DNA of 64,000 bases from the human T2T-CHM13v2.0 reference genome, Homo sapiens: NCBI RefSeq assembly GCF_009914755.1, contig NC_060936.1. The stretch is one strand, 5' to 3'. Numbering within the stretch: the first letter of the stretch is position 1; each line of letters begins with the position of its first letter. Positions 13,196-22,809 of this stretch are shown here, in pieces. Under the pieces are notes generated by a model. That model did not search any database and was not told where the DNA came from. It saw nothing but the letters and a program-made list of their open reading frames with translations. Both the position numbers and the translations under genes were made by a program.

Positions 13196-14903
13196 TAGAT
13201 AGAAAAGGGAGAAAGACTGACCAATAAATATATATATTTACAGATTTTTTCATGAAACTGACTTTCATTTGTAGACATGTCAGATTATACAAAAGATCTC
13301 TTTTTATACATTTTTTAAAGGGTGGAAGCTTCAGTTCAATAGCGTTCGTGAGAAAATCCTTTAAGCTGTGTCAAAATGCCAGTTATCCTAAATGCCACCC
13401 AGATTTGAATAATTTAAAGAGAGACAAAACACACACAGAAAGAGGGAATCATCTTTTGACGACCATTGCTTTTGACGAGTCGGCCTCCCCCGCTCCCTCC
13501 CTCTTTTCTGAAGTATCTTCCTCTCTCTATCAGTGGTGACAACTGCCAGTCAAGCCTTCTGTGGCTGAGGGAGGAGGAGGAATGGGCAGGGGAGAAGCCA
13601 AGGGCAGGAGAGAGGGGAAGAACATGAAACATTCTTGAACAATTGCTCAAGGAAGATTCCCTGTCAGTGTGTGGTCTGGGGAAAAGAAGTCTTTTCCTTC
13701 TTTCATTTCTAATCTCTAACTGACTATTTATCTCTTTTTATAAACTTGAATCTCTCTGTTGCTCCAAAGGTTCCCAAACAAATCGCCAGTCAGCCAGGAT
13801 TAACCTGCTTTGTTGCTGACGATTAGCAGGTTTGCTTGTAGTTTTAACATCTTCAGCAACAGCTGAATGTCAAACGATTCAGGAAATACTTGTCTTATTT
13901 TGTCCAAAGCCATATACATGTTTGAAATAAGCTGAGAGAAAGATACCACACAGAGAGGATTATAGAACATTTCAGAGAGATGGAGTTTGACATGAACAAC
14001 TGAGAACTCTATCAACACTTGTACTTCTGTTGTTTTTATGCCACCATTTTTTTTTAAGTGTTATATTTTGGTCAACTCCCTTTCCCAAAGAAAAATCTGT
14101 AAATGTCTATTTGAATGCCAAACTCTATGAGATGAGCACATTGTAATTTACAAATGCTCATAGCATTCATTTATTGAATATCTACTGGGTGCTGAGTACT
14201 GTGCCAGAATCAAGTCCAGTCTCAGTTTTCAAGAGCCTTCTATTGCATTCACTTATATGTCCATTTCAGCATTTAATCTTTTTTAAAAAGCAATTAAATT
14301 ACTTATGACTCTGTGTTACTTGCAAGACCCTGAAAGACAAAGACTATGTCTTCCTTCTCTACCATCCCTTACTGTGTTGTTTCTTATTAATCTTCTAAAT
14401 GTTAGTTACTCAAGAGCATCTCTTCCTTTTAAGCATCATGATACAGAGAAAGGCATTGGTTTGGAATCAGGGGCTCTGGCTCTAGCACTACCTCATTTTA
14501 TGGCCGTGGACAAACCCATCCTTCAGTAAGCCTTTGGCTTTCAGCATTTATAACGTGAGGAGAGTTCTTTTCCATTGTTCCTTGCAATGCCAAAGTCTGT
14601 GATTCCTTGACCTCAGGGCAAGGAAACTGAATAGCAAGGCTGAGGGACACCTGCCCAATTTTAACCACCTTGAAGACAGGATTTGTCTTCTTCATTGAAC
14701 TCCCTGTGTCAACAAACATAGTGTCCTGCAGTAAAGGTCTACACACTTGAAAGGAACTCAAACTAGGAGTTTGTGAAGCAGAAAAGGAAACAATTTGGTA
14801 GGCATCAACATGGTCCTGGGAGGTAAGCCATAGGAAGGGCAAGATGAGAGCAGGCCCAAGATGTCATATGCATATTTTTGAGTTAATCAGCAGCCACCAT
14901 GTT

Positions 14904-15357
14904 TTTCATGCGCGTCCCTGTGAAGAGACCACCAAACACGCTTTGTGTGAGCAACATGGCTGTTTATTTCACCTGGGTGCAGGCGGGCTGAGTACAAAAA
15001 GAGAGTCAGCGAAGGGAGATAAGGGTGGGGCCGTTTTATAGGATTTGGGTAGGTAAAGGAAAATTACAGTCAAAGGGGGTTTGTTCTCTGGCGGGCAGGA
15101 GTGGGGGGTTGCAAGGTGCTCAGTGGGGGTGCTTTTTGAGCCAGGATGACCCAGGAAAAGGACTTTCACAAGGTAATGTCATCACTTAAGGCAAGGACCG
15201 GCCATTTACACTTCTTTTGTAGTGGAATGTCATCAGTTAAGGTGGGGCAGGGCATATTCACTTCTTTTGTGATTCTTCAGTTACTTCAGGCCATCTGGGC
15301 ATACACGTGCAAGTCACAGGGGATGCGATAGCTTGGCTTGAGCTCAGAGGCCTGACA
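14904..15357 (-). mobile_element. HERV-H 3' LTR (LTR7)
   Basis: Minus strand TGTCAGGCCTCTGAG...GCGCATGAAA; AATAAA at 14963-14968; 454 bp. Confidence 0.95.
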
Positions 15358-15909
15358 ATGTTCATGGCGTGTGCAGATAGGAGTGGACAATCTCATCAGG
15401 GCCTTGCAGGTGAGACTATAGGAAGTGAGACTGGGGATGAAGGGAAGGCTTCTGTCCTGGTATATCTTGAAATACTTTCTATACAAATGTAAATTTACAT
15501 ATTTCCCTTGTACTGAGTATATTTTACTACATTTTTTCTATAAGAGCAATTTCTCCTATCTCTGTATGGATGGATCTACTCTGTCCCCACGCAGATGTCC
15601 CATATCAAGCCACTAATACAATAATGATCTCACCCTGTGTAGGGTATAAGAAGCATTCTAGATCAAGCCCAGGAGTTTGCCACTCTCACTTGGGAATCTT
15701 GCTCTGTTATTTCTCTCATCTTTTCCTCTACTTTCAGTCTCTTCCTCTTCACTGGCTTCTTCCATTCAGTCTACAAACATAATCTCATTCCATTCATTCA
15801 TTGATTTCTTTATTCATTCATTCACATTAATTGCACACCTATTATACATAGTGTATAAAAATAATTACTCTTCCTCAACAACATATGTTCTCCTCACTTC
15901 AAGCAGATA
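15358..15909. repeat. 552-bp direct copy of host flank 21346-21901, inside the provirus
   Basis: Manual alignment: 13 substitutions and 3 indels (1, 7 and 4 bp). Confidence 0.97.
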
Positions 15910-15926
15910 GACATTCCTGCCTTCTT
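15910..15926 (-). other. Polypurine tract plus first 4 nt of an LTR (TGTC)
   Basis: Minus strand AAGAAGGCAGGAA-TGTC, the normal HERV-H PPT/U3 junction, here followed by host DNA. Confidence 0.9.
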
Positions 15927-16249
15927 ATATTAATAAGAAAAATAAAACAAAATAGTGTTGAAGTGTTGGGGTGGCGAAAATTTTTGGGGGGTGGTATGGA
16001 GAGAGAATGGGCGATGTTTCTCAGGGCTGCTTCAAGTGGGATTAGGGGCGTCGTGGGAACCTAGAGTGGGAGAGATTAAGCTGAAGGGAGGTCTTGTGGT
16101 AAGGGGTGATATTGTGGGGATGTTAGAAGAAACATTTGTCGTATAGAATGATTGGTGATGGCCTGGATATGGTTTTGGATGAATTGAGAAACTAAATGGA
16201 ATAACAGAAGGAGAAAAACAGGTATAAAAGGTCCAAGAATTGGGACGAC

Positions 16250-18400
16250 TCAGGATATCTGATTAGAGAGTGCCTAAGGAGATTCAGCATAGTCCTGCCA
16301 GCAAAGATTATTTATTTACTTCAAGAGTTAAGAGTGGCAGTTTGGTGATAGCACCAGGAGATATCAGCTGTGGTGGCTTGGGAAAACAGTGTAAACCGGC
16401 AGTGTAAACAAAAGCAGGGCATTTATGAGTAGTTGAGAATGGTGAATAGGAGTATGACTAGACAGAAGATAGTAGGGATGACAAGTTTTTTGGGGCACAG
16501 TCTAAGTTGGTCTGGTGTCTGCAATGAGACTGGGGCCTAATAAAAAGGAGCATCTATACAGGAGCTTAAATGGGCTGTACCCTGTAGCATTCCGAGGACA
16601 GGCCTGAATTCTGAGAAGGGAAAGTGGTAAAAGTAGTGTCCAGTCCTTTTTGGTGGCTGAGCTTGGTGAGGTGTGTTTTTAAAAGACCTTTAGTCCATTC
16701 TATTTTTCTTGAAGACGGAGGACCGTAAGGGATATAAAGTTTTCACTGAATACTAAGAGCCTGAAAAACTGCTTGGCTGATTTGACTAATAAAGGCTCAT
16801 CTGTTATCAGACTGTATTGAGGTGGGAAGGCTAAACTGAGGAATTATGTCTGACAGAACGGAAGAAATGACTGCGGTGGCCTTCTCAGACCCTGTAGGAA
16901 AGGCCTCTACCTATCCAGTGAAAGTATCTACCTAGACTAAGAGGTATTTTAGTTATCTGACTCAGGTCACGTTGAGTAAAGCTAATTTGCCAGTCCTGGG
17001 TGGGGCAAATCCTCGAGCTTGATGTGTAGGGAAGGGAGGCGGCCTGAATAATCCCTGAGGAGTAGTAGAATAGCAGATGGAACACTGAGAAGTTATTTCC
17101 TTGAGGATAGATTTCCACGATGGAAAGGAAATGAGAGGTTCTAAGAGGCGGGCTAGTGGCTTGTACTATAGCATAACCTGCCTTTGCTGGTGTGTGGCGA
17201 TTAGGCCTGGTGGAACCGCCATCAATAAATTAAGCGTGATCAGGGTGAGGAACAGGAAAGAAGGAAATTTGGGGAAATGGGGTGAATGTCAGGTGGATCA
17301 GAGAGATACAGTCATGGGGGTCAGGTGTGGTATCAGGAATAATGTGGGAGGCCAGATTGAAGTCTGGGCCAGGAACAATGGTAATTGTGGGACTTAAAGA
17401 GTGAGTACAGCTGAAGGAGCCGGGGAGCAGAAAGTATATGCGTCAGGTGTGAGGAAGAAAATAGATTTTGGAAGTTATGAGAACTGTAGAGAGTGAGTTG
17501 AGCATAGTTTGTGATTTTGAGGGCCCCTAAAAGTATTAAAGCAGTGGCAGCCACTGCACACAGACATGAGGGCTAGGCTAAAACAGTAAGGTCAAGTTGT
17601 TTGCACAGAAAGGCTACAGGGTGCAGTCCTGGCTCTTGTGTAAGAATTCTGACCACACTATGCCTAGGAAGGAAATGAGTTGTTGTTTTGTAAGGGATTG
17701 AGGTTTGGGAGATTAATCGGACACGATCAGCAGGGAAAGCACGTACGTTTTTATGAGAATTATGCCGAGATAGGTAACAGATGAGGATGAAATTTGGGCT
17801 TGACTGAAGTAATGGGGGCTGTCTATGAAGCCTTGCGGCAGTACAGCCTAGGTAATTTGCTGAGCCTAATGGGTGTCAGGGTCAGTCTAAGTGAAAGCAA
17901 AGAGAGGCTGGGACAAGGGGTGCAGGGGAATAGTGAAAAAAGCATCTTTAAGATCAAGCATGGAATAGTGAGTTGTGGAGGAAGTTATTGAGGACAAAAG
18001 AGTGTACTGGGTTGGGCACCACAGGGTGGATAGGCAAAACAATTTGGTTGATAAGGCGAAGATCCTGAACTAACTTGTAAGGCTTGTCTGGTTTTAGGAC
18101 AGGTAAAAATGGGGGAATTGTAAGGAGAGTTTATAGGCTTTAAAAGGCCATGCTATAGCAGGTGAGTGATAACAGGCTTTAATCTTTTTAAAGCGTGTTG
18201 CGGGACGGGATATTGGCGTTGAGTAGGGTAAGGGTGATTAGGTTTTAATAAGATGGTAAGGGATGCATGATCGGTCACCAAGGAGGGAGTAGAGGTATCT
18301 TATATTTGTGGGTTAAGGTGGGGGGATACAAGAGGAGGACGCAAAGGAGGCTTTGGATTGGGAAGAAGGGCGGCAATGAGATATAGCTGTAGTCCAGGAA
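16250..18400 (-). pseudogene. pol: HERV-H pol remnant (partial RT and integrase; deleted, frameshifted)
   Basis: Minus-strand translations [11 protein letters not shown] (~18050-18080), [12 protein letters not shown] (~17925-17960) and WQISFT (~16975-16995); boundaries approximate. Confidence 0.85.
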
Positions 18401-18434
18401 TAGTCAGGGAAGCAGATAATTTAGTTAAAGTGTC

Positions 18435-18659
18435 TCAGCCTAATAAGGGAACTGGGCAGGTGGGGATAACTAAAAAGGAGTGCTTAAAAGAGTATTGTCT
18501 AAGTTGGCACCAGAGTTGGGGAGTTTTAAGAGGTTTAGAAGCCTGACCATCAATACCCACAACAGTTATGGAGGCAAGGGAAACAGGCCCTTGAAAAGAA
18601 GGTAATGTGGAGTGGGTAGCCTCCATATTGATTAAGAAGGGGATGGGCTTACCTTCCAC
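18435..18659 (-). pseudogene. pro: HERV-H protease remnant, catalytic motif lost
   Basis: FLINMEATHS in place of LIDTGA; ...CPVPLLG. Confidence 0.85.
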
Positions 18660-18839
18660 TGTGAGAGTTACCCGAAGCTCGGCGTCCGTGTTGGTCTAAG
18701 GGGCTTCCTAGGCGATCGGGCAGTGTCTGTCTTCAGCCGCTAAGCCGAGAAGATCTGGGAAGGAGTCAGTCAGAGAGCCTTGGGACAGAGTTCCAGGGGA
18801 TCTGGGAGTGGCTGCCAGGTGAGTTGAACAGTCCAATTT

Positions 18840-19900
18840 TCAGTGGGGTCCCACACAGATGGGACGTGGCTTAGGAGGAATCCCAGGCTGCGGGCATTCC
18901 TTGGCCCAGTGGCCAGATTTCCAGCACTTGTAGCAAGCTCCTGGGGGAGGAGGTTCTGGAGGAATGCCTGGCTGCTGCGGTTCAGGCGTTTGGAAGTTCT
19001 TGTGTGCTGGAGATGTGGCTGGGGTTTGTCTCACAGAGGAGGCAAGGAATTGCAACTTTTTTCTGTTATTGTACACCTTGAAGGTGAGGTTAATTAAGTC
19101 CTGTTGTGGGGTTTGAGGGCCAGATTCCAATTTTTGGAGTTTTATTTAATGTCGGGAGCAGATTGGGTAATAAAATGTATATTGAGAATAAGACAGCCTT
19201 TTGACCTTTTAGGGTCTAGGGCTGTAAAGCATCTCAGGTTGCTGCCAAACGAGCCATGAACTGGGCTGGATTTTTATATTTGATGAAAAAGAGCCTAAAT
19301 GCTTCTGATTTGGGATAAAGAAAAAGGAGCATTAACCTTGACTATGCCGTTAGCTCCAGCCACCTTTTTAAGAGTAAATTGCTGGGCAGGTTGGGGAGGG
19401 CTAGTCACGGAAAGAAACTGTAAGCCCGACCAGGTGTGAGGAGGGGAAGTGATAAAAAGATTATAGGGCGGAGGAGAAGAGGCTGAGGAAGAATTGGGAC
19501 CTAGCTCAGCCTGGTGAGGAACAGCCTGGGGAGGAAAGGAGAGGTCAGATGGGTCTGTAGAAAAGGAAGATTAGAAAGACTCAACGACGCTTGTGGTTGG
19601 TACTGAGGGGACAGGCGGGAGGGAAAGAAGGAAGGTTTGGGACGAGTTGCACTGGGCACAGAGACTAGGAAGGGACTGATGTGTAAAAGAATGCCTGGAC
19701 GTCAGGCACCTCAGACCATTTGCCTATTTTACAACAAGAATTATTTAGATTTTGCAGGATGGAAAAATTCAAAGTGCCATTTTCTGGCTATTTGGAACTA
19801 CTGTCGAGTTTGTATTGGGGTCAAGCGGCATTGCAGAAGAAAATAAGGCATTTAGGTTTTAAGTCAGGTGGTGAGTTGAAGAGGTTTTAAGTTTTTGAGA
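18840..19900 (-). pseudogene. gag: HERV-H gag remnant
   Basis: ORF 18840-19130 has the NC zinc knuckle [14 protein letters not shown]; upstream boundary approximate. Confidence 0.8.
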
Positions 19901-20040
19901 ACACAGGCCAAGGGAGTAGAAGGAGGAATGGAGGTTGGAAGGCTGCCCATAGTGAAGGAAGCAAGCCTAGAGAAGAGAGTAGAGAAATGGAGGGAAGGGG
20001 TTCAGGGGTTCTTACCTTCCAGAAAAGTGGGAACAGGGGT

Positions 20041-20293
20041 TGGGGCTCAGAGATAAGAGGTCGGGGCGTGGAAATAAGGGACTAGGGTGCAGAGATATAA
20101 GAGGTTGGGGCACGGAAATAAGGGATTGGGGTGCAGAGATAAGAGGTCGGGGTGAGGAAATAAGGGATTGGGGTGCAGAGATAAGAGGTCGGGGTGTGGA
20201 AATAAGGGATTGGGGCAGAGATAAGAGGTTGGGGTGCGGAAATAAGGGATTGGGGTACAGAGATAAGAGGCTGGGGTGTGGAAATAAGGGATT
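20041..20293. repeat. Six-copy ~42-bp minisatellite in the HERV-H leader
   Basis: Unit GGGGTGCAGAGATAAGAGGTCGGGGTGTGGAAATAAGGGATT. Confidence 0.9.
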
Positions 20294-20873
20294 GGGGGTT
20301 CTTGCCCCATAGAAAAGTGGGACTTGCCGCTAAGGGTGAAGGAGAAGCGGTTGAGGGGTACTTGCCCCTCTCCCAGAAAAGCAGAGAAGGGTTAGAGACA
20401 AGGAGAGAAGGGGTTGGGGTACTTGCCCCTTCCCCAGAAAAGCGGGACTTGCCGCTAAGGGTGAAGGACCAAGGCAGGCATCCCTGTGTGGTCTGACACC
20501 CTTGAAACGTGGGTGTATAATCAGAGAGGCGTCCCTGCAATGATTAAACACCAAGGGAAGCCTGCCTTCCCAGTCCATGACCGGCGCCGGAGTTTTGGGT
20601 CCACGGATAAAATGTGTCTCCTTTGTCTCTCCCAGAAAATGAAAGGAATTGAAATTAAGAGAAGGGAGAGATTGAAGAGTGGAAAGGAGAAAGTGGTTGA
20701 GGGACAGTGAGAGAGGTTGGAGAAGAGAGTAAGAAGAGGCCACTTGCCTGATTTAAAATTGGTGAGATGTTCCTTGGGCTGGTCGGTCTGAGGACTTGAG
20801 GTCATAGGTGGATCTTTCTAATGGAGCGAAGAACACGAGTACAGGGGATTGATCTCCCAAGGGAGGTCCCCTG

Positions 20874-20891
20874 ATCAGAGTCACGGCACCA
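20874..20891 (-). other. Primer binding site, tRNA-His
   Basis: TGGTGCCGTGACTCTGAT, one mismatch to TGGTGCCGTGACTCGGAT, 2 nt after the 5' LTR. Confidence 0.92.
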
Positions 20892-20893
20892 AA

Positions 20894-21345
20894 TTTCATG
20901 TGCGTCCGTGTGAAGAGACCACCAAACAGGCTTTGTGTGAGCAACATGGCTGTTTATTTCACCTGGGTGCAGGCGGGCTGAGTCCAAAAGAGAGTCAGCA
21001 AAGGGAGATAAGGGTGGGGCCATTTTATAGGATTTGGGTAGGTAAAGGAAAATTACAGTCAAAGGGGGTTTGTTCTCTGGCGGGCAGGAGTGGGGGTCGC
21101 AAGGTGCTCAGTGGGGGTGCTTTTTGAGCCAGGATGACCCAGGAAAAGGACTTTCACAAGGTAATGTCATCACTTAAGGCAAGGACCGGCCATTTACACT
21201 TCTTTTGTAGTGGAATGTCATCAGTTAAGGTGGGGCAGGGCATATTCACTTCTTTTGTGATTCTTCAGTTACTTCAGGCCATCTGGGCATATACGTGCAA
21301 GTCACAGGGGATGTGATGGCTTGGCTTGGGCTCAGAGGCCTGACA
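20894..21345 (-). promoter_or_regulatory. HERV-H 5' LTR (LTR7), promoter facing lower coordinates
   Basis: TATAAAA 21023-21029; AATAAA 20953-20958; two ACAAAAGA motifs (21201-21208, 21251-21258); adjacent to the PBS. Confidence 0.93.
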
Positions 21346-22809
21346 ATGTTCATGGCATGTGCAGATAGGAGTGGACAATCTCATCAGGGCCTTGCAGGTG
21401 AGACTATAGGAAGTGAGACTGGGGATGAAGGGAAGGCTTCTGTCCTGGTATATCTTGAAATACTTTCTATACAAATGTAAATTTACATATTTCCCTTGTA
21501 CTGAGTATATTTTACTACATTTTTTTCTATAAGAGCAATTTCTCCTGTCTCTGTATGGATGGATCTACTCTGTCCCCATGCAGATGTCCCACATCAAGCC
21601 ACTAATATAATAATGATCTCACCCTGTGTAGGGTATAAGAAGCATTCTAGATCAAGCCCAGGAGTTTGCCACTCTCACTTCTCACTTGGGAATCTTGCTC
21701 TGTTATTTCTCTCATCTTTTCCTCTACCTTCAGTCTCTTCCTCTTCACTGGTTTCTTCCAGTCTACAAACATAACCTCATTCCATTCATTCATTGATTTC
21801 TTTATTCAGTCATTCACATTAATTGCACACCTATTATACACAGTGTATAAAAATTATTACTCATCCTCAACAACATATGTTCTCATCACTTCAAGCAGAT
21901 ACCCTCTTCTTCTTTCTCACTGGGATCAAAGTGAATTAATGAGAATATCTTCAGTATCCCTTTCTTCATTGTAATTCTCCACATCTGCCTTCCTTCCTGC
22001 CTCTTCACTTTTGTCTTAAAGGAGGATATTTCCGGTCTTCATTTATCAGTTAGGATGGTTTCTGCATGCCTCTTAATAAGGAAATGTATTATTTCACATA
22101 GCAGGAAGTCCCGTGATAGTACAGGCTCCAGGCAGAGTATGACCAATGCTCTGGTTGCTTTGCTTTGAGATTCTCTCAGCGATTCAAAAACACAAAAGCA
22201 AGGCAGTGGTTGTGTTTGGGAAGGTGAGGGAAGAGAGAGAATGGAACAGTAAGCAGGGATCGTCAATTATATTTATAATTATTTATTTAAGCTGGTTTGT
22301 GTGTACTTGGGTATACATTAGTCTAGTCTTACCATTTTGTGTGAAAAGAAACATAAGATTTAAATATATTAATACAATGATTATTTGTAACCACATCCAA
22401 CTGAAGAGTGCTTCTGAAGTCCCTTGTGTTTCCTTCCACATTTTTATTTTCCATCCAGACTCCCAGAGGGAATGACTATATGGAAGTGTGTGAATCTTTG
22501 AATTTTATGTAAATTGAATAATTCTATATCTCATTTTTTACTTTTATTCTTCTATGACTTGACTTGTTTCTCTAACATAGTATTCTAGGATTCATATATG
22601 CTAATGCATATAGCTACAGTTCATTTGTTTTCAGCAATAAATAGTATTTTATTACACAAGTTAGCTACAACCGAATCCTGTGGGAAATGTCAAGAAGCCA
22701 CCACATCCGAGGAGTGAGAGTTTTGAGGCATACCCATGAAGTTTGCCAGAGTTCATGAAAAAGTTTGTAAACCTGACAATTTGATAAAGTTTGAGTTTAT
22801 TGAACATAT

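What the first reader, a model, noticed from the sequence alone, without database searches (positions are those of the whole stretch)
14899..21901. HERV-H provirus carrying its own upstream host flank between PPT and 3' LTR
Seen, in viral sense: host X, 5' LTR, PBS, gag/pro/pol, PPT, TGTC, a 552-bp copy of X, 3' LTR, host Y. The 5-bp TSD ATGTT occurs three times (14899, 15358, 21346), so 14899-15909 looks exactly like a solo-LTR allele fused to the proviral body. The fusion lies 4 nt into U3, and no viral sequence appears lost at the junction. Established: normal integration duplicates only about 5 bp of host DNA. Inference: a break at the PPT/U3 border was repaired by the LTR end copying from the 5' LTR (or a solo-LTR homologue), overrunning into the flank and then end-joining. 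An aberrant integration intermediate is an alternative.
Basis: partly seen in the sequence, partly recalled or inferred. Interest (0 to 1): 0.9.

Follow-up and report, generated by a model that had tools for sequence, protein, structure and literature searches.

The report
HERV-H provirus with internal flank copy
A human endogenous retrovirus on chromosome 12 carries a second copy of its own upstream host DNA just in front of its downstream repeat, most likely a scar of break repair, and both breakpoints lie beside purine-rich tracts.

Summary
On the minus strand lies a HERV-H provirus: 5' LTR 21345-20894, PBS, gag/pro remnants, PPT. After the PPT come the first 4 nt of U3 (TGTC), a 547-nt copy of the host DNA just upstream of the 5' LTR, the 5-nt target-site duplication, and a complete 3' LTR. 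ATGTT occurs at 14899, 15358 and 21346.

The flank occurs only twice in the genome, both here. In 29 of 29 other HERV-H copies the PPT runs straight into the LTR. None of 307 copies sharing the 20-nt PPT anchor has another break within U3 nt 1-5.

The flank pair (13/543) and the LTR pair (11/452) are equally diverged, and about as old as the provirus itself.

New here: the original flank copy begins exactly at the 3' edge of a 17-nt host polypurine tract (about 2-4 in 10,000 by chance). Both parents of the junction therefore break just 3' of a PPT-like tract on the same strand.

Best reading (about 0.5): a break at the PPT/U3 border was repaired by copying from the 5' LTR into its flank, then joined bluntly. 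A cDNA patch, or unequal exchange plus LTR deletion, remain possible. It is a one-off variant of moderate interest.

The parts
14899..14903 (-). Target-site duplication ATGTT (AACAT in viral sense), on the downstream host side (Y)
14904..15357 (-). 3' LTR (LTR7-type, 454 nt), complete from TGTCAGG to CATGAAA, with ATGTT on both sides like a solo LTR
15358..15362 (-). Internal copy of the target-site duplication ATGTT
15363..15909 (-). 547-nt copy of the host flank that lies upstream of the 5' LTR (copy b)
   Evidence: 13 substitutions in 543 aligned positions plus 3 indel events against 21351-21901
15910..15913 (-). GACA on the + strand = TGTC, the first 4 nt of U3, left attached to the PPT. 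The novel junction is 15909|15910
15914..15926 (-). Viral polypurine tract AAGAAGGCAGGAA
   Evidence: identical or nearly so in 29 other copies
15914..20873 (-). HERV-H internal region with broken frames. Protease remnant 18435-18695, gag zinc knuckle 18840-19145, 42-nt tandem repeat 20035-20297
20874..20891 (-). Primer-binding site TGGTGCCGTGACTCTGAT (its tRNA-His assignment is recalled, not tested), 2 nt after the LTR
20894..21345 (-). 5' LTR (452 nt)
   Evidence: 11 substitutions in 452 positions plus two 1-nt indels against the 3' LTR
21346..21350 (-). Target-site duplication ATGTT on the upstream host side
21351..21901 (-). Original upstream host flank (copy a, 551 nt), continuous with further host DNA
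21902..21918 (-). 17-nt host all-purine tract GAGAAAGAAGAAGAGGG (viral sense). Its 3' edge is exactly the far boundary of the copied flank

Best explanation
A normal HERV-H integration made the AACAT duplication. This is shown by intact outer LTR ends and matching 5-mers. Early in the provirus's residence, possibly while the integrated DNA was still being repaired, the DNA broke between U3 nt 4 and 5 of the 3' LTR, right after the PPT. The LTR-side end invaded the identical 5' LTR about 6 kb away, on the same or the sister chromatid. It was extended leftwards through TGTC, the AACAT duplication and 547 nt of upstream host DNA. It came off the template exactly where a host polypurine tract begins, and was joined bluntly to the waiting PPT-TGTC end. 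The result is PPT-TGTC | flank copy - AACAT - complete 3' LTR, with nothing lost. Shown: the structure, the blunt junction, the uniqueness, the age, and the purine tracts at both breakpoints. Inferred: the break, the strand invasion, the stop at the tract, the end-joining, and the cause of the break. The break may have come from a plus-strand discontinuity at the 3' PPT of the incoming DNA, or from stalling at the tract.
For: (1) The insertion is exactly the 556 nt (547 + 5 + 4) that precede U3 nt 5 at the 5' LTR, placed at U3 nt 4/5 of the 3' LTR. One side of the event is therefore in perfect homologous register and the other side is non-homologous. (2) There is no microhomology at TGTC|TATC, as expected for classical end-joining of a two-ended break. 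(3) This needs one break and one step, whereas the rivals need two breaks or two steps. (4) Both breakpoints lie at the 3' side of purine tracts on the same strand: viral PPT +4 and host tract +0. The chance of the exact edge of a run of 17 or more purines on a given strand is 30/128,000 = 2.3e-4 in the window, and 3.7e-4 for runs of 15 or more. This is the geometry expected if one nascent strand moving in one direction stopped twice. (5) Age. The flank pair is 13/543 = 2.39% diverged and the LTR pair 11/452 = 2.43% (Fisher p = 1.0). Per lineage the flank pair is 1.2% (non-CpG 11/539, 1.02%), against a terminal branch of the internal region of 1.69% (non-CpG 1.06%), estimated by three-point distances to 27 relatives. 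The copy is thus about as old as the provirus. (6) Host polymerases extending free viral DNA ends on nearby templates at integration sites are documented experimentally (PMC5041404, Discussion read in full).
Against: The final sequence is identical under several routes, so no result here singles this one out. The viral PPT is not a pure purine run (7 + 5 purines split by a C) and the host tract is only 17 nt and an imperfect mirror, so both are poor triplex formers and a structural stall is not well grounded. The stop at the host tract is exact to the base, which fits primer generation by RNase H at least as well as polymerase stalling. No second case exists: of 307 HERV-H copies with the 20-nt anchor ending at the PPT, the two screens for non-LTR sequence starting within U3 nt 1-5 returned only this locus and one copy with a 3-nt deletion. 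Screen sensitivity is about 81% by my calculation. The PPT/U3 border is therefore not a recurrent breakpoint. The purine-tract coincidence was noticed after the fact. The dating interval is wide (flank pair per lineage 0.64-2.05%, Poisson 95%).
Confidence: 0.5

Rival explanations
1. cDNA patch. The provirus lies in sense orientation in a C12orf42 intron, so host read-in transcripts run through host tract, flank, 5' LTR and PBS. Such an RNA was reverse transcribed from the PBS. The host purine tract survived RNase H and primed plus-strand DNA, giving a double-stranded fragment flank-AACAT-LTR whose left end is exactly the first base after the tract. This fragment repaired a break at the 3' PPT/U3 border: homology on the LTR side, end-joining on the other.
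For: The far boundary is exact to the base at the 3' edge of an A-rich tract ending in GGG, which is where a retroviral RNase H would be expected to leave a primer (PPT features recalled). Gene and provirus are on the same strand (hub annotation). The event dates to about the age of the provirus, when HERV-H reverse transcriptase would still have been active.
Against: It needs read-in RNA that escapes polyadenylation in the 5' LTR, then packaging or RT access, then an independent chromosomal break at PPT+4, then use of a cDNA as repair donor, which is rare in mammals. There is no excess of G-to-A changes in copy b: 4 sites have b=A/a=G and 3 the reverse, unpolarised, counted by hand from the list. 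No progeny or other copies of the flank exist elsewhere.
Confidence: 0.15
2. Two-break unequal exchange. One break fell at PPT+4 on one chromatid or homologue, and a second at the host tract|flank boundary on the other. They were joined by end-joining, giving a 6-kb tandem duplication (flank-LTR-int-TGTC twice) followed later by recombination between the second 5' LTR copy and the 3' LTR. Alternatively it happened in one step, if the partner chromosome already carried the solo-LTR allele.
For: It gives exactly the observed sequence. The 3' end looks like a solo-LTR allele. LTR-LTR recombination, solo LTRs and tandem arrays are well-documented ERV outcomes (passages of PMC6298018; bioRxiv 10.64898/2026.09.22.753638; PMC3625200). 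Equal divergence of the LTR and flank pairs is automatic if both were copied at once.
Against: It needs two independent breaks, each next to a purine tract, plus a second recombination or a pre-existing solo-LTR heterozygote. HERV-H is reported to form solo LTRs at a low rate (PMC6298018 passage). The early date leaves little time for a solo-LTR allele to arise first.
Confidence: 0.2
3. Aberrant one-ended integration of the kind produced experimentally. Integrase inserts one viral end, and host enzymes join a truncated other end with a large host duplication.
For: Such proviruses carry host duplications of hundreds to thousands of bp next to a truncated viral end (PMC5041404). The PPT-TGTC end looks like a truncated viral end followed by a duplicated host segment.
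Against: Both outer LTR ends are complete and flanked by the same 5-mer, so both ends were inserted by integrase in concert. The model gives no source for a complete 3' LTR with the duplication on both its sides, unless an internal break in the viral DNA is added, which turns it into the best explanation.
Confidence: 0.05
4. Retrotransposed element with enlarged LTRs (host insert in U3 copied into both LTRs, as in transduction or double-copy vectors), or an assembly artefact.
For: An insert at U3 nt 4 would be copied to both LTRs in one replication round (established retroviral replication, recalled).
Against: The upstream copy is not preceded by TGTC but runs on into host DNA. No 5-mer duplication exists at the outer edges of the 1-kb repeat. 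The flank has no third copy at a source locus (2 full-length matches of 4, the other two covering 54 nt or less). Against an artefact: the two copies differ at 24 substitutions and 5 indel events, so they are not a duplicated read pile. The RefSeq enhancer feature 14591-15572 spans Y-LTR-flank without a break (hub annotation).
Confidence: 0.03

Closest known systems
Canonical HERV-H provirus (LTR7 - HERVH-int - LTR7 with 5-bp target-site duplication)
   Same: Two LTR7-type LTRs, PBS 2 nt after the 5' LTR, gag/pro remnants, the family's PPT, and a 5-bp duplication at the outer ends. The last 291 nt of the internal region are 97-99% identical to the scored genomic copies.
   Different: The PPT is separated from the 3' LTR by TGTC plus 552 nt of host-derived sequence. 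29 of 29 comparators, and 334 genomic copies carrying the 17-mer PPT+TGTC followed by A, run straight into the LTR.
Experimentally induced aberrant retroviral integrations with large host duplications (Hughes laboratory; PMC5041404)
   Same: Host DNA of hundreds of bp is duplicated next to a viral end that stops short. Host polymerases copy nearby host or viral templates onto a free viral end.
   Different: There one outer viral end is defective and lacks an integrase-type junction. Here both outer ends are normal, and the abnormal junction is internal, in front of a complete 3' LTR.
LTR-LTR recombination products: solo LTRs and tandem arrays with shared LTRs (HML-2 pangenome preprint 10.64898/2026.09.22.753638; PMC3625200; PMC6298018)
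   Same: LTR homology guides the rearrangement, and the 3' part of this locus is indistinguishable from a solo-LTR allele.
   Different: There is no second internal region and no shared LTR. Host flank lies inside the element, and one junction is non-homologous. The classes named in the passages I read of these papers are provirus, solo LTR, fragment, tandem array, segmental duplication and non-classical insertion with deletion. None of them has this layout.
Synthesis-dependent strand annealing that ends prematurely and is finished by end-joining (Drosophila gap-repair assays; recalled, papers seen only in the listing)
   Same: Homologous invasion, a few hundred nt of synthesis, dissociation, non-homologous joining.
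   Different: The template here is an ectopic repeat (the other LTR), so the synthesis runs out of the repeat into foreign flank and creates a duplication instead of a deletion.

Membership tests
HERV-H provirus | Two LTR7-type LTRs in direct orientation | tested here: met
   14904-15357 and 20894-21345, 11 substitutions in 452 positions. They align with the 3' LTRs of 27 other copies.
HERV-H provirus | Short target-site duplication at the outer LTR ends | tested here: met
   ATGTT at 14899-14903 and 21346-21350.
HERV-H provirus | PPT directly abutting U3 of the 3' LTR | tested here: not met
   The PPT is followed by TGTC and then 552 nt of host-derived sequence. 29 of 29 comparators meet the feature.
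HERV-H provirus | Internal gag-pro-pol order and a PBS after the 5' LTR | tested here: met
   PBS at 20891-20874. zf-CCHC E 3.9e-6 and RVP E 1.8e-5 in the expected order. 7 of 9 frames gave no match, and pol was not shown by Pfam.
Tandem provirus array (shared LTR) | Two or more internal regions separated by a shared LTR | tested here: not met
   There is only one internal region between the LTRs. The direct repeats are limited to LTR plus flank.
One-ended aberrant integration | One outer viral end truncated or lacking an integrase-type junction and target duplication | tested here: not met
   Both outer LTR termini are complete with matching 5-mers.
Element with host insert in U3 propagated by replication | The same insert, preceded by the first U3 bases, in both LTRs, and a source copy elsewhere | tested here: not met
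   The upstream copy is preceded by GAGGG, not TGTC. Only two full-length copies exist in the genome.
Break repair by ectopic LTR-templated synthesis plus end-joining | One junction in homologous register, the other blunt and non-homologous, with no loss of sequence | tested here: met
   The signature is consistent with this class but is not exclusive to it.
Break repair by ectopic LTR-templated synthesis plus end-joining | Direct demonstration of the intermediate or of the ancestral canonical allele | not testable with these tools

The most novel reading that the evidence does not exclude
The flank copy is reverse-transcribed DNA. A C12orf42 read-in transcript entering the sense-oriented provirus was copied from the PBS. 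A host polypurine tract then acted as a surrogate PPT and set the left end of an 'extended LTR' cDNA. That cDNA patched a break at the 3' PPT/U3 border. This would be a germ-line fossil of surrogate-PPT priming and cDNA-templated chromosomal repair in a primate.
Probability: 0.15. Interest if true: 0.75.

Novelty: new variant of a known kind. Interest (0 to 1): 0.45.

Why it matters
ERV loci are usually sorted into provirus, solo LTR, tandem array or fragment. This locus shows a further outcome in which LTR homology carries host flank into the element. It also fixes both breakpoints to the base, each beside a PPT-like tract. If more cases exist, they would record how breaks at the PPT/U3 border arise and are repaired in the germ line, or show that host purine tracts can prime plus-strand synthesis on read-in transcripts. 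In practice, the layout makes one provirus look like a solo LTR plus a 3'-truncated provirus to repeat annotation. It also duplicates about 1 kb that RefSeq marks as enhancer (hub annotation). As a single ancient event with no shown functional effect, its weight is modest.

Tried and rejected
(1) Enlarged-LTR or transduction reading: rejected.

(2) Flank as part of a HERV-H lineage: rejected. The genome holds 2 full-length copies, both here. The 2 other matches cover 54 nt or less of a low-complexity stretch.

(3) Hot-spot test with a 13-nt purine anchor: useless. It gave 478 and 394 mostly chance purine-rich hits, with controls of 32 and 17.

(4) Hot-spot test with a 20-nt anchor: no second case among 307 copies. 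Junctions further into U3 or upstream of the PPT were not screened, nor were copies with a mutated anchor (about 1154 first-look candidates exist).

(5) Microhomology or homeologous recombination between the viral PPT and the host tract: about 11 of 21 positions match in either register (my by-hand comparison of the strings), as expected for two purine-rich strings. The product also keeps both TGTC and TATC. Rejected.

(6) APOBEC-type G-to-A bias in copy b: 4 against 3, no signal (my count).

(7) Gradient of LTR differences as a crossover mark: uninformative.

(8) L1-endonuclease-type nick sites at the breakpoints: the sequences do not resemble the recalled TTTT/AA motif.

(10) Literature. Searches listed no paper describing this locus or this layout. 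C12orf42 plus HERVH gave 0 papers. Supplementary locus tables of PMC6298018 and others were not opened, so a listing of this locus there cannot be excluded. PMC1617299 (alternate PPTs and integration) is not held.


Full report
WHAT IS THERE

Reading the minus strand as viral sense, the region holds these parts in order:
- further host DNA, ending in a 17-nt purine tract (21918-21902)
- host flank, copy a (21901-21351)
- AACAT (21350-21346)
- 5' LTR (21345-20894)
- a 2-nt spacer and the PBS TGGTGCCGTGACTCTGAT (20891-20874)
- the internal region, with a 42-nt tandem repeat (20297-20035), a gag zinc knuckle (19145-18840) and a protease remnant (18695-18435) (2 of 9 frames tested had Pfam matches)
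- PPT AAGAAGGCAGGAA (15926-15914)
- TGTC (15913-15910)
- flank copy b (15909-15363)
- AACAT (15362-15358)
- a complete 3' LTR (15357-14904)
- AACAT (14903-14899) and host Y

The repeat finder and a pairwise alignment show one continuous direct repeat of LTR + AACAT + flank. It stops abruptly at 15909 and 21901.

THE JUNCTION

In 29 of 29 other HERV-H copies taken from the same genome, the identical PPT is followed at once by the LTR start TGTCAGGCC. Of these, 28 read TGTC and one reads TGTT; one copy has a 4-nt duplication further in. The four bases after the PPT at this locus are therefore U3 nt 1-4, and the complete 3' LTR further on starts again with TGTCAGG, so nothing viral is missing. 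The two parents of the junction read ...GGAATGTC|AGGCC (viral) and ...AGAGGG|TATCTGC (host). The product reads ...GGAATGTC|TATCTGC, so the join is blunt with no shared base.

IS THE FLANK REALLY HOST DNA, AND IS THE LAYOUT UNIQUE?

The 547-nt segment has four matches in the whole assembly. Two are itself and the upstream copy. The other two are matches of 54 nt or less to a low-complexity part, on other chromosomes. It is therefore neither a HERV-H lineage sequence nor a transduced segment with a source elsewhere.

The upstream copy is not preceded by TGTC, and the 1-kb repeat has no duplication at its outer edges, which excludes an enlarged-LTR element.

Genome-wide, the 17-mer PPT+TGTC is followed by A (the normal LTR) 334 times and by another base 8 times. 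Those 8 are five LTRs with a point change, two non-HERV-H chance matches, and this locus.

Using a 20-nt anchor that ends at the last PPT base (307 copies), I ran two screens for non-LTR sequence beginning within U3 nt 1-5. They returned only this locus and one copy with a 3-nt deletion. By my calculation the two screens together would catch about 81% of random junctions. The PPT/U3 border is thus not a recurrent breakpoint in HERV-H, and this is a one-off. Two earlier screens with a 13-nt anchor were worthless.

AGE

- The two LTRs differ at 11 of 452 aligned positions (2.43%), plus two 1-nt indels.
- The two flank copies differ at 13 of 543 positions (2.39%), plus three indel events of 1, 7 and 4 nt (Fisher p = 1.0).
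- Leaving out CpG sites, the figures are 4/428 for the LTRs and 11/539 for the flank (p = 0.20).

For an independent estimate of the provirus's own age I took the last 1.7 kb of the internal region. I computed its terminal branch from three-point pairwise distances to 27 other copies. Two of 29 were dropped because their segments are disrupted. The result is 1.69% (5-95% range 1.38-2.00), or 1.06% without CpG.

The flank pair gives 1.2% per lineage (1.02% non-CpG; Poisson 95% 0.64-2.05%). The flank copy is therefore about as old as the provirus, with a point ratio of 0.7-1.0 and a lower bound near 0.4. With a recalled hominoid rate of about 1e-9 per site per year, this is of the order of 10 million years. 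No ape genome was available to check that.

Under routes in which the LTR and flank are copied together, the equality of the two pairs is automatic. The comparison with the internal region is what argues for an early event.

NEW OBSERVATION: A SECOND PURINE TRACT

The host base immediately 5' of flank copy a is the last G of GAGAAAGAAGAAGAGGG, an uninterrupted 17-nt purine run on the viral-sense strand that is A-rich and ends in GGG. The copied segment therefore starts exactly at the 3' edge of a PPT-like tract, and it was joined 4 nt past the viral PPT.

In the 64-kb window there are 30 purine runs of 17 nt or more on the two strands together. The chance that a given position is the exact 3' edge of one on a given strand is 2.3e-4. 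For runs of 15 nt or more it is 3.7e-4. In the other fetched loci it is 3.8e-4, a background biased upward because 30 of those loci were picked by a purine motif. Allowing a few bases of slack and either strand raises the chance to roughly 0.2-1% (my estimate).

The tract was noticed after the fact. However, the question 'is the other breakpoint also at a polypurine tract?' followed from the first breakpoint, so I take the association as probably real.

MECHANISM

The inserted block is exactly what lies to the left of U3 nt 5 at the 5' LTR, placed at U3 nt 4/5 of the 3' LTR. One side of the event was guided by LTR homology and the other was non-homologous.

- A two-ended break forms at the PPT/U3 border.
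- The LTR-side end invades the 5' LTR.
- Synthesis proceeds through TGTC, AACAT and 547 nt of flank.
- The new strand is released at the host tract.
- It is joined bluntly to the PPT-TGTC end.

The early date allows a peri-integration version, in which the break derives from a plus-strand discontinuity at the 3' PPT of the newly integrated DNA. That retroviral plus strands are made in segments is recalled. A preprint seen only as a listing abstract argues for multiple initiation sites in HIV. Host polymerases extending free viral ends on nearby templates are documented for aberrant integrations (PMC5041404, passages and full Discussion).

Purine mirror repeats are reported to stall polymerases and cause breaks (listing abstracts of PMC11667243 and PMC5027492). 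But both tracts here are short, and the viral one is interrupted by a C, so a structural stall is weakly grounded.

RIVALS

(a) cDNA patch. The provirus is in sense orientation in a C12orf42 intron (hub annotation), so read-in RNA containing tract-flank-LTR-PBS should exist. Reverse transcription from the PBS, with plus-strand priming at the host tract, would give a fragment whose left end is exactly the observed boundary, and that fragment could repair the break. This explains the base-exact boundary best, but it needs several rare steps. No editing signature is seen.

(b) Two breaks at the two tracts, with unequal end-joining. This gives a 6-kb tandem duplication that later lost one internal region by LTR-LTR recombination, or a one-step join with a solo-LTR homologue. 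The end product is the same, but it needs more events.

(c) One-ended aberrant integration. This is disfavoured because both outer LTR ends have integrase-type junctions.

(d) Enlarged-LTR element or assembly artefact. The first is rejected above. Against the second, the two copies differ at 24 substitutions and 5 indel events.

I put (a) at 0.15, (b) at 0.2, (c) at 0.05 and (d) at 0.03, against 0.5 for chromosomal repair synthesis.

COMPARISON WITH WHAT IS KNOWN

The classes named in the passages I read are provirus, solo LTR, fragment, tandem array with shared LTRs, segmental duplication, non-classical insertion with target deletion, and one HML-2 provirus whose duplication contains repeat fragments. 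None has host flank between the PPT and a complete 3' LTR.

Five literature searches listed nothing on this locus or this layout. Supplementary locus tables were not opened.

I file the locus as a new variant of a known kind (ERV rearrangement by LTR-guided repair), not as a new category.

VERDICT

- It is a one-off, ancient event.
- The double purine-tract coincidence is the most interesting and least explained part.
- Interest is 0.45.

Noticed in passing
window 14899-21918 relative to C12orf42 (hub annotation): The provirus lies on the same strand as the host gene C12orf42, so it is a sense-oriented intronic provirus. Host pre-mRNA should read into the flank and the 5' LTR.
   Followed up: partly
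window 20035-20297: A 42-nt tandem repeat (6.3 copies, 87% matches; also read as 21- or 82-nt units) lies in the leader/gag-proximal part of the internal region.
   Followed up: no
window 14904-15357 vs 20894-21345: The 11 substitutions between the two LTRs were polarised against 27 other LTRs. 7 derived changes fall on the 3' LTR and 4 on the 5' LTR. 7 of the 11 are at CpG sites.
   Followed up: partly
window 15111-15530: Differences between the two 1-kb copies are uneven. There are none in 15111-15303 or in 15370-15530, but 5 in the 66 nt between them (15304-15369), straddling the LTR/flank border. This could reflect patchy gene conversion or chance.
   Followed up: no
window 14591-15572 and 20905-21485 (hub annotation): RefSeq 'enhancer' features cover both LTR copies. 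The first spans Y, the 3' LTR and 210 nt of flank copy b without a break, which indirectly suggests that the LTR-flank adjacency also exists in the assembly on which the feature was defined.
   Followed up: no
G000:C5:98943233-98943261; locus L029: Two other HERV-H copies have small lesions right at the U3 start: a 3-nt deletion (T---AGGCCT) and a 4-nt duplication (TGTCAGTCAGG).
   Followed up: no
window 15770-15830 / 21765-21825: The flank contains a low-complexity ATTC-rich stretch. It accounts for the two short extra matches on other chromosomes.
   Followed up: partly
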